A stretch of 64,000 nucleotides of DNA from the human T2T-CHM13v2.0 reference genome, Homo sapiens: assembly GCF_009914755.1 (NCBI RefSeq), contig NC_060935.1. One strand, 5' to 3'. Position 1 is the stretch's first letter. Each line of letters begins with the position of its first letter. This document shows, piece after piece, positions 18,917 to 23,677 of this stretch. Under the pieces are notes generated by a model. That model made no database searches and had not been told where the DNA came from. It was given only the letters and a program-made list of their open reading frames with translations. The translations under genes and the position numbers were made by a program.

Positions 18917-19193
18917 ATCTTTACATTAGCATGGTATAAAAATTTAAGGAGCACTTTAACATGTAATGCTGGCAAAACTTCGTAGGCTTGATCCCTAAAT
19001 GGTCAATATTCTAATCCTTCTCTGAGAATCTTAGTAAGAAGTTCCTACTAAATGGTGAGATTAATAGTGTAGCTGGAATATGGTCCCATTTGCCTCAGGG
19101 AAACCTTCAATAGATGATATTTTGAGAACTCTAAAAATGGCAGAGATCTTATAAAACATTTTGTGTCACTCTCTTAATAAATGCATGGTTAAA
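18917..19193 (+). repeat. Left arm of 277-bp inverted duplication (non-TE sequence)
   Basis: Reverse complement of 23401-23677 with 4 substitutions and no indels (aligned by hand). Confidence 0.97.
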
Positions 19194-20953
19194 TATGACC
19201 TATTTATTTAACTAGGAATAAATTGAAAGAACAAAGTTGAAGCATGCACACTTATTTGACACTTGAACTGAACATTTCTAAGGTGATTCAGCCAGATATT
19301 GCTCTGATATAAACATTCAATGCCTTCACATTTTCTCTATTTACTTTTTTCTCTAAAACAATTTTACATTGCTCTTCCCTGTCTAGCTACTCAAAAGTTC
19401 ATCTAACACATTTATTTTTCTTTCTTAAACATAAATTATGTTTAAAGGATTTGGGAATAAAAGGATAAGTGAAATGATCACTAAGTGCAAACTCCTCAAG
19501 AAATGGAGTGTGTTCTCTTAAAATAATTTCCTGTAGATACCACCAATTTGCAAGCACATCAAAGATAAGAAAGTTATGCTTTCTGTGTGTGAGATGCATA
19601 CAGGTACCAATAGTCTTTTTAGTTAATAATAATGCCTTATATTTTATAATTAGCTTTTATCACTTGTTACATTTAAAACTTTTATCCTTTAATAATAACA
19701 CTTAAATCATATTGGAATTACAAAATATGAAATCATTTCTGATTTTCTCTCTCAGTTGCTTTTCCTTTCTGTGACTTAGTTTCTTCAGCACAATGACCAA
19801 AATGTATACCAGATTGTTCTTTGTAATTGTATCAGGTTAAAGTCTAAAAGTCTTACAAATTTTTAATAGATACATACAATATTTACAAATATGTCATATG
19901 CCATTTAACCTACCCAAAGTTTAAAAGCTCATAAGTTTTAAAATCCTATAACTAGCACTGTGACAAAAGAATTTAATATATATATAAATCTGTTTTAAAG
20001 TTTTCTTTAATCATGTTCACTCTGTCTCAATGCAAAAGAATTATACCATTTTGGAGATGTATTTTTCTTATAAATAATGATAATATTTGCCATGGTTTGT
20101 ATGTCTGACTTTTAAAAATATGCTTATTTAACATTACTTTGATAGTTGCTTGAAGGGAAAAATAATAGCTCATAGTATTCTTTAGATGATAAGACTTTGA
20201 TCAGTTTCTTTCTTGTTAGTCTAAGTGGTTGCATTTGGTCCCCAGAAAAATTTTCATGCATATCAGATAACCAGACAGTTTTTCTACCCATTAAGATATT
20301 GTGTTTTTCCTTCCTTAACTTAATTTCTTGTAACAAGGCTATTTTTCAGTGTATTGAATTTTTTTATATCATGGAGAAATACATGCTCTATTACTTCTTT
20401 ACAAAGTCATTTGCATATAAATGAGCTCCCCCTCCTATCTCTGTCTATTGTCTTCATTCTGCAAACATTTGCATATTTGAACGAGTCTTTCAGACCACAG
20501 ATTCAGTTCAAGCACGAAAAGTATTTGCAATACTGCATTTTGGGAAATGGCAATGCCATGCTACAACTTATTTACCGAGTTCCTATTCTTCACTGTCAGA
20601 GACTACACTTACTAAGAACAAAAAAAATCAAAATTGAAGAAATAAAATAGATTCAGAACATGAGAATAAGGAGGGTCTCAAGAGCTTGAACCACAGACAT
20701 GTATCTTCTGTCTTTATTATTAACTAATATGCTGGGAGTTCGAAAAATTCTATTTGATTCTCTACTTTGTAATCAAATTAATTGAATAATAGTTCAGCCT
20801 CTTACTTTTCTTAACTAGTACAGATGCAACAAAGTTCAACTTTCCCAAAGTCACCAATTACATTTTCAGGTACTTGTAGTGTGCTTTTATTTTGATTGCC
20901 ATGTGATTCTAACTACCCTATGCTGAATATTCATTACCAAAAAAAAAAACTCA

Positions 20954-21266
20954 GGCAGGACGCCATGGCTCACGCCTGTAATCCCAGCACTTTGGGAGGC
21001 CGAGGTGGGCGGATCACCTGAGGTCAGGAGTTTGAGACTAGCCTGGTCAACATGGTGAAACCCCATCTCTACTAAAAAAAACAAAAATTAGCCAGGCATG
21101 GTGGCAGGCGCCTATACTCCCAGCTACTCGGGAGGCTGAGGTATGAGAATTGCTTGCTCCCGGGAGATGGAGGTTGCAGTGAACTGAAATCATGCCACTG
21201 CACTCCAGCCTGGGTGATAGAGTGAGACTCTGTTTAGTAACAAATAAATAAATGAAATAAATAAAT
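20954..21266 (+). mobile_element. AluS-like SINE
   Basis: Full Alu with (TAAA)n tail. TSD aaactca at 20947-20953 and 21267-21273. Confidence 0.95.
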
Positions 21267-21526
21267 AAACTCAGCTAACAGTTTACTATTAAAAATTCTA
21301 TTTATTCAATTATTTTACTTTTATTCATCTACATATACATAATTATTTTAATTATGATATAGTTTCTGGTTTAAAATTTTTTGTCTTATATATATTTTTA
21401 AATTAAAAGATTAAAAGATACAAATTCTAAGATGTAAAAAAAATACAAAGAACTTGAAAGGAGTTAAAGCTTTACCCTTTGCCCTCAGGCCCCATCCTGT
21501 TTCCCGACTATTGATAATTTAGAGAT

Positions 21527-22063
21527 CATGATGGTTAACACTGAGTGTCAACTTGATTGGACTGAAGAATGCAAAGTATTGTTCCTGAGTGTGTCTGTGA
21601 GGGTGTTGTCAAAGGAGATTAACATTTGAGTCAGTTGACTGGGAGAGGCAGACCCACCCTCAAGCTGGGTGGGCACCATCTGATCAGCTGCCAGCAGGGC
21701 TGGAATAAAAGCAGGCAGAAGAATGTGGAACAATTAGACTGGCTAAATCTTCTGGCCAACATTATTCTCCCATGCTGGATGCTTCCTGCCCTTGAACATT
21801 GTACTCCAAGTTCTTCATCTTTTGGACTCTTGGACCTATGTCAGTGGTTTGCCAGGGGCTCTCAGGTCTTTGGCCATACACTAAAGGCTGCACTGTCAGC
21901 TTCCCTACTTTTGAGGTTTTGGGACAGGGACTGGCTTCCTTTTTCCTCAGCTTGCAAATGGCCTATTGTGGGAGTTTACCTTATTATACTCCTTAATAAA
22001 CTCTCCTTTATATATACATCTATCCTATTAGTTCTGTCCCTCTAGAGAACCCTGACTAATACA
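21527..22063 (+). mobile_element. ERVL solo LTR MLT2A (A1/A2)
   Basis: tgatggttaacactgagtgtcaacttgattgg...ggcagacccaccctcaa...ctctagagaaccctgactaataca. 5-bp TSD gagat/gggat. Confidence 0.92.
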
Positions 22064-22189
22064 GGGATATATTCACAAAGTCAATATTCCTGCCGAAGAA
22101 ATAACAACCAAATTATGTTGTCATTTGTAAAGAGGTCACATTTTCCTCATTATAGGACCCAACCCAAAATTGGCACAAATAACAACATG

Positions 22190-22255
22190 GACACATATAC
22201 ACAGGCACAAATACACAAACACACACACACAAACACACAGAAACACACACAGAAA
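22190..22255. repeat. Imperfect (CA)n
   Basis: Visible. Confidence 0.8.
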
Positions 22256-23256
22256 CAAGCCTCTCATCCGGACAGTGCTCTCATTTTGCCTCTAGCCCTC
22301 ATCAGCCATGGTCAAAAATAATTTTAAAAAATATTATCTTGACTAGCTCTTAAATTTACCCAAAGACTTATTTATTTAGATAATCCACAATATTCTTTAT
22401 AAACATGCAAAAAAATATTTTCCGCATCTTCTAAGTTGGGTTGAATACACACTTTTTGGTATAGGCTGTTCTCCTTTGGTGTGCTCTATCCATTATTTCC
22501 TTCAGAAGTGACAATAACTTTGCTTCTATGAAATTAATGTTCTGATATTTTCTTCTAGCCATTGCCTTCTCAAGGCTTCTAAAGTATTCCTTGATCACAC
22601 TAGTGATTAAAATGATGCCACTCCTCTAGGTTACTGTTTATCTATGAGTGTGTGCAGTCTGCACACGGAGTGAAATAGAGGAAAGAGATGGTTGATAAAG
22701 ATAGTTTTTCCTCAAATGTCAGGAGGTTTGACTTGTATTTCTTTCCCATTACCTTGAAAATAAAATATGATTTGGAGAATATTGAGTTAACTTTCTACCT
22801 TTCAAAGAAATAAGGGGATTATAAACCTTCCTATATTTGCTGGAAAATCATTTGACATTGTATAAAAGGTGACAATCATATATTTTGAAAAAGTACTATC
22901 TCTTCTGGCATTATAGCCCAATAAAATAAATTCAAAGACTCGTGAACAAAGATGTTCTTTGCTACATTGTTTGCCATCCATATGACCATCGGTTGATCCT
23001 GCTTAGATAAATTGTGTTATATCTTATGAAAGACTCAGTCAATATCATAGCGTTTATTGAGAAATGCAATAACAGAAATATTTACCTTCCAAACTGGGCT
23101 AAGCCAAGTTTGTCTTAAACAACTGTTAAGTTATTTTGCCACTTTTAGTAGCCTCCAGTAGCTTTTGGAAAGGGTCGGCTGCTCCTCCAGAATCATCCTA
23201 TTAAAAATTTTAATGAAAGCAAATCTCTGGCCCTTTTCTGCCACACATGCTGACTT

Positions 23257-23387
23257 GTTTTTGTTTGTTCTTGCTGTTGTTTTTTGAGTCAGAGTCTCCA
23301 GGTCTCAAACTCCTGACCTCAAGTGATCCACCTGCCTTGACCTCCCAAAGTGCTAGGGATTACAGCCATGAGCCACCACACCCAACC
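23257..23387 (-). mobile_element. Internally deleted Alu / FLAM-like monomer
   Basis: T-rich tail and gagtcagagtctc joined directly to the left-arm sequence ggtctcaaactcctgacctc. TSD tgctgactt at 23248-23256 and 23388-23396. Confidence 0.9.
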
Positions 23388-23400
23388 TGCTGACTTTTAT

Positions 23401-23677
23401 TTTAAGCATGCATTTATTAAGAGAGTGACGCAAAATGTTTTATAAGATCTCTGCCATTTTTAGAGTTCTCAAAATATCATCTATTGAAGGTTTCCCTGAG
23501 GCAAACGGGACCATATTCCAGCTACACTATTAATCTCACCATTTAGTAGGAACTTCTTACTAAGATTCTCAGAGAAGGATTAGAATATTGACCATTTAGG
23601 GATCAAGCCTACGAAGTTTTACCAGCATTACATGTTAAAGTGCTCCTTAAATTTTTATACCATGCTAATGTAAAGAT
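23401..23677 (-). repeat. Right arm of 277-bp inverted duplication
   Basis: Reverse complement of 18917-19193. Confidence 0.97.

What the first reader, a model, noticed from the sequence alone, without database searches (positions are those of the whole stretch)
18917..23677. 277-bp near-perfect inverted duplication of unique DNA bracketing a 4.2-kb potentially invertible segment
Seen: 18917-19193 is the reverse complement of 23401-23677 with no indels and only 4 substitutions (18973/23621, 19088/23506, 19164/23430, 19188/23406), i.e. 98.6% identity. The longest perfect run is 114 bp and the spacer is 4207 bp. Two of the differences are CpG in the right arm and TpG/CpA in the left. I do not recognise the arm as any TE, and it is far more similar than any TE pair in the window. 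Established: short high-identity inverted repeats mediate recurrent NAHR inversions and can be homogenised by gene conversion; short reads mostly miss such inversions. Inference: this is either a recent templated inverted duplication or an older IR kept alike by conversion, and the spacer may be orientation-polymorphic. It may already be catalogued: I recall, unverified, a similarly sized IR-flanked human inversion at 2q22 in InvFEST.
Basis: partly seen in the sequence, partly recalled or inferred. Interest (0 to 1): 0.8.

Follow-up and report, generated by a model that had tools for sequence, protein, structure and literature searches.

The report
Old, fixed small inverted duplication
A 280-base stretch of unique intergenic DNA on human chromosome 11 was copied once, back to front, about 4 kb away several million years ago; it is a real but ordinary scar of DNA repair, with no sign that the DNA between the copies flips in people today.

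Summary
Arms 18914-19193 and 23401-23680 are reverse complements: 280 nt, 5 mismatches, no indels, 4207-nt spacer. Only these two copies were found in the window's genome. Homology stops within 1-3 nt at all four edges. No other repeat pair of 100 nt or more in the window exceeds 83.5% identity.

The mismatches are scattered as expected by chance (P = 0.42-0.58), so no conversion tract shows. Both CpG differences are decays in the left arm. Divergence of 1.4-1.8% gives a rough age of 7-18 My (95% range 2-42 My).

The anatomy matches the commonest inversion-type variant in Sudmant 2015: inverted duplications under 1 kb placed within 5 kb of the source. Whether the spacer was inverted in the same event cannot be told without outgroups.

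Present-day invertibility finds no support. No inversion is called here in 65 long-read-assembled people. The locus is absent from a 612-entry list of inverted-repeat-flanked inversion candidates.

Verdict: a new member of a known kind, of low interest.

The parts
18914..19193 (+). It carries the decayed state (CA, TG) at both CpG-type differences.
23401..23680 (-). Right arm of the inverted repeat: the reverse complement of the left arm with 5 mismatches and no indels. It keeps CpG at 23506 and 23430.
19194..23400 (.). 4207-nt spacer. It is mostly single-copy DNA: 19194-20900 has 1 match in the genome, itself. It also holds an Alu, a ~540-nt interspersed repeat, a CA-rich low-complexity tract and an Alu-monomer-like SINE.
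23248..23396 (-). Alu-left-monomer-like SINE (body about 23257-23387, A-rich tail) with 9-nt direct repeats AAGTCAGCA at 23388-23396 and 23248-23256. It lies wholly in the spacer, and its 5' direct repeat ends 4 nt from the inner edge of the right arm. Its CpGs are heavily decayed, so it is probably older than the duplication (inference).
   Evidence: (I8, D6)
20944..21275 (+). Full-length Alu inside the spacer; not part of the repeat.
   Evidence: (D1-D4)
21529..22063 (+). ~540-nt interspersed repeat inside the spacer, 84-87% identical to 39 other scored loci that share the same two ends. The family was not determined.

Best explanation
A discrete ~280-nt piece of unique, AT-rich (33% G+C) intergenic DNA was copied once, in inverted orientation, about 4.2 kb from its source. 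The likely cause is a one-off break-repair or replication template-switch event (FoSTeS/MMBIR or alt-end-joining type) in the germline of a human ancestor several million years ago. The result is a two-copy inverted repeat with sharp edges that is now fixed, or nearly so. Since then the arms have drifted apart by ordinary point mutation, including two CpG decays in the left arm. It is a fixed example of the 'inverted duplication' class that dominates inversion-type variants in human populations. I split this explanation about 60:40. The larger share goes to a plain inverted insertion of the copy with the spacer untouched. The smaller share goes to a duplication-flanked inversion (dupINV/INVdup, or staggered breaks) in which the 4.2-kb spacer was turned over in the same event. 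Today the repeat is essentially inert. Shown: the repeat, its copy number, its edges, its divergence, and its absence from inversion catalogues. Inferred: the mechanism, the age, fixation, and which arm is the copy.
For: (1) The repeat has two copies only in the whole assembly, both at this locus. The flanks 19194-20900 and 23681-24300 are single-copy. (2) The edges are sharp. In register beyond the arms, 22/60 nt (outer) and 11/60 nt (inner) match. Smith-Waterman scores of 500-nt flanks (19, 14, 15) are at or below the shuffle means (19.8, 14.9, 17.7). This points to a discrete copied block rather than a decayed longer palindrome. (3) There is no poly-A and no target-site duplication at the arm edges, and the outer flanks differ (junction print). 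So it is neither a retroposed copy nor a transposon with terminal inverted repeats. (4) The 4-5 differences are spread as expected at random: P(longest perfect run >= 114) is 0.58 for 4 in 277 and 0.42 for 5 in 280. Both CpG-type differences are decays in the same arm, so those sites have not been homogenised since. (5) The geometry matches Sudmant 2015. [quoted passage not shown] (6) Divergence is 1.44% (4/277) to 1.79% (5/280). That gives 7-18 My at 1.0e-9 to 0.5e-9 per site per year (rates recalled), with a 95% range of 2-42 My. This far exceeds human coalescence times, so fixation is expected. (7) No inversion is called here in 65 people / 130 assembled haplotypes against either reference, and none appears in the 612-entry candidate list.
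Against: No outgroup or second human haplotype could be examined with these tools. The derived state, the donor arm, the age and fixation are therefore all inferred. Two of the 5 mismatches lie within 6 nt of an arm end (18916, 19188). Random scatter does not predict this. They could be alignment run-on into chance matches or microhomology, or errors made during synthesis of the copy. I found no clean microhomology at any junction by eye, so the hallmark of a template-switch or MMEJ event is not demonstrated. The right arm's inner edge lies 4 nt from a SINE's target-site duplication, a coincidence this account does not explain. The catalogue checks show only that no inversion was called or listed; they do not show that none exists. 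The HGSVC3 workbook is cut in the held copy, and I did not see its Tables 60/61.
Confidence: 0.72

Rival explanations
1. The repeat is an active NAHR substrate: the 4.2-kb spacer flips recurrently or is orientation-polymorphic in humans at low frequency, or differs in orientation among apes through toggling.
For: The arms are inverted, over 200 nt long and 98% identical. That is the minimum flank seen at 132/183 sequence-resolved balanced inversions. Validated inversions with repeats as short as 140 nt exist.
Against: No inversion ID beginning chr11-8, chr11-9 or chr11-10 appears in the HGSVC3 CHM13-based or GRCh38-based inversion tables for 65 people. Those tables do list chr11 inversions of 389, 784 and 3577 nt, so the size class is detectable. 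There is no chr11 entry at 97.6-97.99 Mb among 612 repeat-flanked candidates pooled from InvFEST and five long-read or optical studies. Recurrence scales with repeat length: 23/32 recurrent inversions have repeats of 10 kb or more. The NAHR inversions of Giner-Delgado 2019 have repeats of 654 nt to 24.2 kb. Even among 319 unflagged inverted segmental-duplication pairs of 1-50 kb, only 6 (1.9%) were polymorphic in 54 people. The longest perfect run here is 114 nt, below the roughly 200-400 nt usually quoted for efficient mammalian homologous recombination (recalled, no call).
Confidence: 0.08
2. The repeat is much older than its divergence suggests and has been kept nearly identical by gene conversion between the arms.
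For: Conversion between closely spaced inverted repeats is well known (established knowledge; discussed in the passages). The divergence alone cannot separate a 10-My-old duplication from an older one that was homogenised about 10 My ago.
Against: No degraded homology flanks the arms, as an old partly converted repeat would usually show. Mismatch spacing fits random scatter, so no tract of identity is bounded by clustered differences. Two CpG decays in the left arm remain uncorrected. The arm is short and the spacer 15 times longer.
Confidence: 0.1
3. The arms are the terminal inverted repeats of a transposon or another multicopy element, or the structure is an assembly artefact.
For: A 4.8-kb unit bounded by inverted repeats superficially resembles a DNA transposon. 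NCBI's mask is no full TE annotation: it misses a 540-nt repeat that has 39 scored copies.
Against: Only 2 genome-wide matches exist, both here. There is no target-site duplication: the outer flanks read ...ctgataag on the left and gaaatagc... on the right. Identity of 98% is incompatible with the age of human DNA transposons (established knowledge). The interior is single-copy DNA plus unrelated SINE and other repeat insertions. The region is unique euchromatin in a telomere-to-telomere assembly, and a 280-nt repeat is far shorter than the reads used (inference). No misorientation call appears against either reference.
Confidence: 0.03

Closest known systems
'Inverted Dup' class of inversion-type structural variants (Sudmant et al. 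2015, PMC4617611; passages read)
   Same: A stretch under 1 kb (here 280 nt) is duplicated in inverted orientation within 5 kb of the source (here 4207 nt). It shows no retrotransposition marks and consists of unique sequence.
   Different: Those are polymorphic alleles scored against the reference. This copy is in the reference itself, is 1.4-1.8% diverged and so is millions of years old and presumably fixed. Its derived status has not been shown with an outgroup.
CNV-flanked inversions dupINV / INVdup (Collins et al. 2017, PMC5338099; gnomAD-SV, PMC7334194), and the staggered-break model of inversion with inverted duplications at the breakpoints (Drosophila; recalled, no call)
   Same: The end product A-B'-A' (arm, inverted spacer, inverted copy of the arm) is what a one-sided duplication-flanked inversion leaves. 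MMBIR/FoSTeS or synchronous repair of several breaks is the proposed cause.
   Different: Whether the spacer here is inverted relative to the ancestor is unknown. No TE or other marker spans a breakpoint to reveal it.
Inverted-repeat-mediated (NAHR) polymorphic inversions, InvFEST HsInv series (PMC3961182, PMC6748972, PMC13629690)
   Same: A high-identity inverted repeat brackets a few kb of DNA.
   Different: The arms are shorter than nearly all validated cases. The locus is absent from the tables and lists I could read. No second orientation is known.
Genome-wide catalogue of intrachromosomal repeat pairs of at least 200 bp and 80% identity (Fernandez-Luna et al. 2024, PMC11794170; abstract and sections 6, 12 read)
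   Same: This pair meets the catalogue's criteria in T2T-CHM13, so it should be one of its 627,791 inverted pairs.
   Different: I did not see the row. The catalogue lists pairs without origin or orientation history. The median pair there is 84% identical and 31 Mb apart, so this one is unusually similar and close.

Membership tests
Inverted Dup (Sudmant 2015) | Duplicated stretch shorter than 1 kb | tested here: met
   280 nt
Inverted Dup (Sudmant 2015) | Copy lies within 5 kb of the alternate copy, in inverted orientation | tested here: met
   4207 nt between the arms, which are reverse complements
Inverted Dup (Sudmant 2015) | Not a retrotransposition product | tested here: met
   No poly-A and no target-site duplication at the arm edges (junction print, read by eye). 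The nearby SINE has its own direct repeats inside the spacer.
Inverted Dup (Sudmant 2015) | One copy is a derived insertion relative to the ancestral allele | not testable with these tools
   No primate or second human sequence could be reached. Ape-genome supplements were unreadable.
NAHR-mediated polymorphic inversion | [quoted passage not shown] | tested here: met
   280 nt, 98.2%; threshold as used
NAHR-mediated polymorphic inversion | Both orientations observed among individuals | tested here: not met
   No call in HGSVC3 Tables 37/38 for 65 samples. Not among the 612 candidates of PMC13629690 Table S1. This is absence from lists, not direct genotyping.
NAHR-mediated polymorphic inversion | Uninterrupted identity long enough for efficient homologous recombination | tested here: inconclusive
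   The longest perfect run is 114 nt. The threshold of about 200-400 nt is recalled, not taken from a call.
dupINV / INVdup CNV-flanked inversion (Collins 2017) | Inverted segment with a duplicated block at one breakpoint | tested here: inconclusive
   The duplicated block is present. Inversion of the spacer relative to the ancestor cannot be read from one haplotype, and no repeat spans a junction.
DNA transposon with terminal inverted repeats | Target-site duplication and multiple genomic copies | tested here: not met
   2 matches genome-wide, both at this locus; the outer flanks are unrelated
Segmental duplication (at least 1 kb, at least 90%) | Length of at least 1 kb | tested here: not met
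   280 nt with sharp edges. This is why segmental-duplication-based inversion screens would not include it.

The most novel reading that the evidence does not exclude
The repeat is the scar of a lineage-specific 4.2-kb inversion. A staggered-break or two-switch replication event in an ancestor of humans (African apes or all great apes) turned the spacer over and duplicated 280 nt at one breakpoint. Apes on either side of that event would then differ in both arm number and spacer orientation. That would make this a cleanly datable human-lineage example of the 'inversion creates its own inverted repeat' route, as opposed to 'inverted repeat creates the inversion'. The repeat could since have allowed rare re-inversion.
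Probability: 0.3. Interest if true: 0.3.

Novelty: new member of a known kind. Interest (0 to 1): 0.12.

Why it matters
In itself it matters little. The locus lies in a gene desert, outside the annotated lncRNA and the RefSeq enhancer and silencer marks of the window. Nothing functional was found in the arms, and Rfam gave nothing there. Its modest value is as a clean, datable, fixed example of the small local inverted duplications that make up most 'inversion' calls in population surveys. With ape assemblies it could show whether such events commonly invert the intervening DNA. It also illustrates that an inverted repeat can be the product of a rearrangement rather than its cause. Short high-identity repeats like this fall below the 1-kb cut-off of segmental-duplication-based inversion screens.

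Tried and rejected
(1) I looked for a transposable element or other multicopy sequence split by a junction, which would have revealed whether the spacer is inverted. I ran genome-wide searches of the left outer flank, left inner flank, right inner flank and right outer flank. The left outer flank has only an old repeat at 18402-18692, which ends about 220 nt before the arm. The two flanks that matter most (19194-20900 and 23681-24300) are single-copy. Hits to the right inner flank all fall in a CA-rich tract (22174-22260). So no marker was found.

(2) I looked for homology that resumes beyond the SINE next to the right arm. There is none.

(3) I tested the transposon-with-inverted-termini reading and rejected it: no target-site duplication and only two copies.

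(4) I searched Rfam over 17500-25000. It gave only sub-threshold Alu-derived SRP and mir hits, none in the arms.

(5) Ape inversion tables were out of reach. The supplements of PMC12058530 are not readable here. Porubsky 2022 in Cell is not held, so I read only its preprint text, and bioRxiv supplements are closed. Those tables may bear on the question.

(7) I inspected the four junctions for microhomology by eye and saw nothing convincing.

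Full report
**Observation.** The repeat finder reports arms 18914-19193 and 23401-23680: 280 nt, 98% complementary, 4207 nt apart. A base-by-base comparison gives five mismatches and no indels: 18916/23678, 18973/23621, 19088/23506, 19164/23430 and 19188/23406. 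The repeat can be extended 3 nt outward at the cost of one more mismatch. The two CpG-type differences are as described: the right arm keeps CG where the left arm has CA (19088) and TG (19164) (CpG counts 1 versus 3). The match is far beyond chance, at E = 2e-138 within the window. It is the only pair of 100 nt or more in the 64-kb window above 83.5% identity, among 70 non-self HSPs.

**Copy number and surroundings.** The arm has two matches in the whole assembly that holds the window, both at this locus (2 candidates, 2 scored). The tool warns that its first look can miss old diverged copies. An ancient repeat origin of the 280 nt is therefore not strictly excluded, but a young multicopy family is.

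The spacer contains several unrelated elements:
- a full Alu (20944-21275, +);
- a ~540-nt interspersed repeat (21529-22063), 84-87% identical to 39 other scored loci that share its two ends (13,221 first-look candidates, 40 scored);
- a CA-rich low-complexity tract (22191-22257);
- an Alu-left-monomer-like SINE on the minus strand, next to the right arm, with 9-nt direct repeats at 23388-23396 and 23248-23256.

The stretches that adjoin the junctions are single-copy: 19194-20900 and 23681-24300 each match only themselves. The left outer flank holds only an old repeat at 18402-18692, which matches 39 other loci at 69-80% identity. That repeat stops about 220 nt short of the arm. Rfam finds nothing in the arms.

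**Edges.** Homology ends abruptly at all four edges. In register beyond the arms, 22/60 nt (outer) and 11/60 nt (inner) match. Local alignments of the 500-nt flanks score no better than shuffles, including the flank taken beyond the SINE. There is no poly-A and no target-site duplication around either arm. So a discrete block was copied. The structure is not the conserved core of a longer decayed palindrome. It is not a retroposed copy. It is not a transposon with terminal inverted repeats.

**Age and conversion.** Divergence is 4/277 = 1.44% to 5/280 = 1.79%. With mutation rates of 1.0e-9 to 0.5e-9 per site per year (recalled values), the point estimates are 7-18 My. The Poisson 95% range is 2-42 My. 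Divergence is thus of the order of that between humans and African apes (recalled). The spacing of the differences is what random scatter gives: the probability of a perfect run of 114 nt or more is 0.58 for 4 mismatches and 0.42 for 5. The 114-nt run is therefore no evidence of a conversion tract. Both CpG decays lie in the left arm and have not been copied across or corrected. None of this excludes earlier conversion, but nothing calls for it.

**What it most likely is.** Sudmant et al. 2015 characterised 229 inversion-type sites with long reads (passages read). Only 20% were simple inversions, and 54% were inverted duplications. 'In nearly all cases' these were duplicated stretches under 1 kb inserted within 5 kb of the other copy. 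They were not typically linked to retrotransposition and were attributed to a replication-error type of process. A 280-nt copy placed 4.2 kb away in inverted orientation is exactly that geometry.

The same end product, arm then spacer then inverted arm, is also what a one-sided duplication-flanked inversion leaves. Collins 2017 names these dupINV/INVdup and ascribes them to MMBIR/FoSTeS or synchronous repair of several breaks. It is also what the staggered-break model known from Drosophila inversions would produce (recalled). I tried to decide between 'copy inserted, spacer untouched' and 'spacer inverted in the same event' by looking for a repeat element split by a junction. None exists. On base rates I put the split at about 60:40. 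In either case the inverted repeat is a product of a rearrangement, not necessarily a cause of one.

**Is the spacer invertible today?** I found no support for this.
- The HGSVC3 workbook (PMC12350169) holds the PAV inversion callsets for 65 people against CHM13 (Table 37) and GRCh38 (Table 38).
- These tables list chr11 inversions at 0.35, 1.7, 4.3, 18.3, 24.4, 49.0, 50.3, 62.1 and 66.2 Mb, some as small as 389, 784 and 3577 nt.
- No ID beginning chr11-8, chr11-9 or chr11-10 occurs in either table. The first occurrences of those strings are in a later sheet.
- Searches for chr11-976 to chr11-979, and for numbers starting 9783 to 9788, gave nothing on chr11.
- Caveat: the held copy of the workbook is cut, and I did not see Tables 60/61.

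Moreira-Pinhal et al. 2026 (PMC13629690) pooled InvFEST paired-end predictions, five long-read, Strand-seq or optical-map studies and inverted segmental duplications into 612 repeat-flanked candidates in hg38. In their Table S1 the only coordinate starting 976 to 979 is on chromosome 12. That check assumes the hg38 position lies within about 0.2 Mb of the T2T position. I infer this from the similar coordinates of neighbouring calls at 62.09 Mb in the two references.

Base rates point the same way:
- Recurrence is driven by repeat length, and 23/32 recurrent inversions have repeats of 10 kb or more.
- NAHR inversions in Giner-Delgado 2019 have repeats of 654 nt to 24.2 kb.
- Of 319 previously unflagged inverted segmental-duplication pairs of 1-50 kb, only 6 (1.9%) were polymorphic in 54 people.

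On the other side, 132/183 resolved balanced inversions have flanking repeats of 200 nt or more, and validated cases go down to 140 nt. A rare inverted allele therefore cannot be excluded.

**What is known and what is new.** The class is well described. This pair also meets the criteria (at least 200 nt, at least 80%) of a published genome-wide map of repeat pairs in T2T-CHM13, which lists 627,791 inverted pairs, though I did not see its row. I found no paper that discusses this locus. That rests on three full-text searches, none of which surfaced a paper on this locus, and on the tables above. It is therefore a new member of a known kind.

**What remains unexplained.** Two of the five mismatches lie within 6 nt of an arm end. 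The right arm's inner edge also sits 4 nt from the SINE's target-site duplication, at an A/T-rich site. Both may be coincidence.

**Verdict.** This is a genuine, two-copy, sharply bounded inverted duplication of unique DNA. It was most likely made in one repair or replication event millions of years ago and is now fixed and inert. Its 'templated inverted duplication' alternative is supported, with 'recent' meaning millions of years. Its 'invertible segment' idea is unsupported by current catalogues. Interest is low. The one informative follow-up is a comparison with ape assemblies, which would date the event and show whether the spacer was inverted with it.

Noticed in passing
window 23248-23396 (-): An Alu-left-monomer-like SINE (about 131 nt plus an A-rich tail) with intact 9-nt direct repeats. 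Its 5' repeat ends 4 nt from the inner edge of the right arm. Its CpGs are heavily decayed, so it probably predates the duplication. The closeness of a duplication breakpoint to an old L1-endonuclease-type A/T-rich site may be coincidence.
   Followed up: partly
window 21529-22063 (+): A ~540-nt interspersed repeat, 84-87% identical to 39 other scored loci that share the same start and end. It is not in the hub's list of the longest masked stretches, so NCBI's mask here is not a full TE annotation. The family was not determined.
   Followed up: partly
window 18402-18692: An old interspersed repeat in the left outer flank, 69-80% identical to 39 other loci (344 first-look candidates, 40 scored). 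The family was not determined.
   Followed up: no
window 22191-22257: A CA-rich low-complexity tract (TRF periods 8-22). It draws hits to tandem arrays at many loci.
   Followed up: yes
window 747-1473 vs 50521-51259; 35093-35477 vs 50516-50906: Inverted matches of 749 nt and 391 nt at about 80% identity. They are presumably copies of one older interspersed repeat family and were not examined.
   Followed up: no
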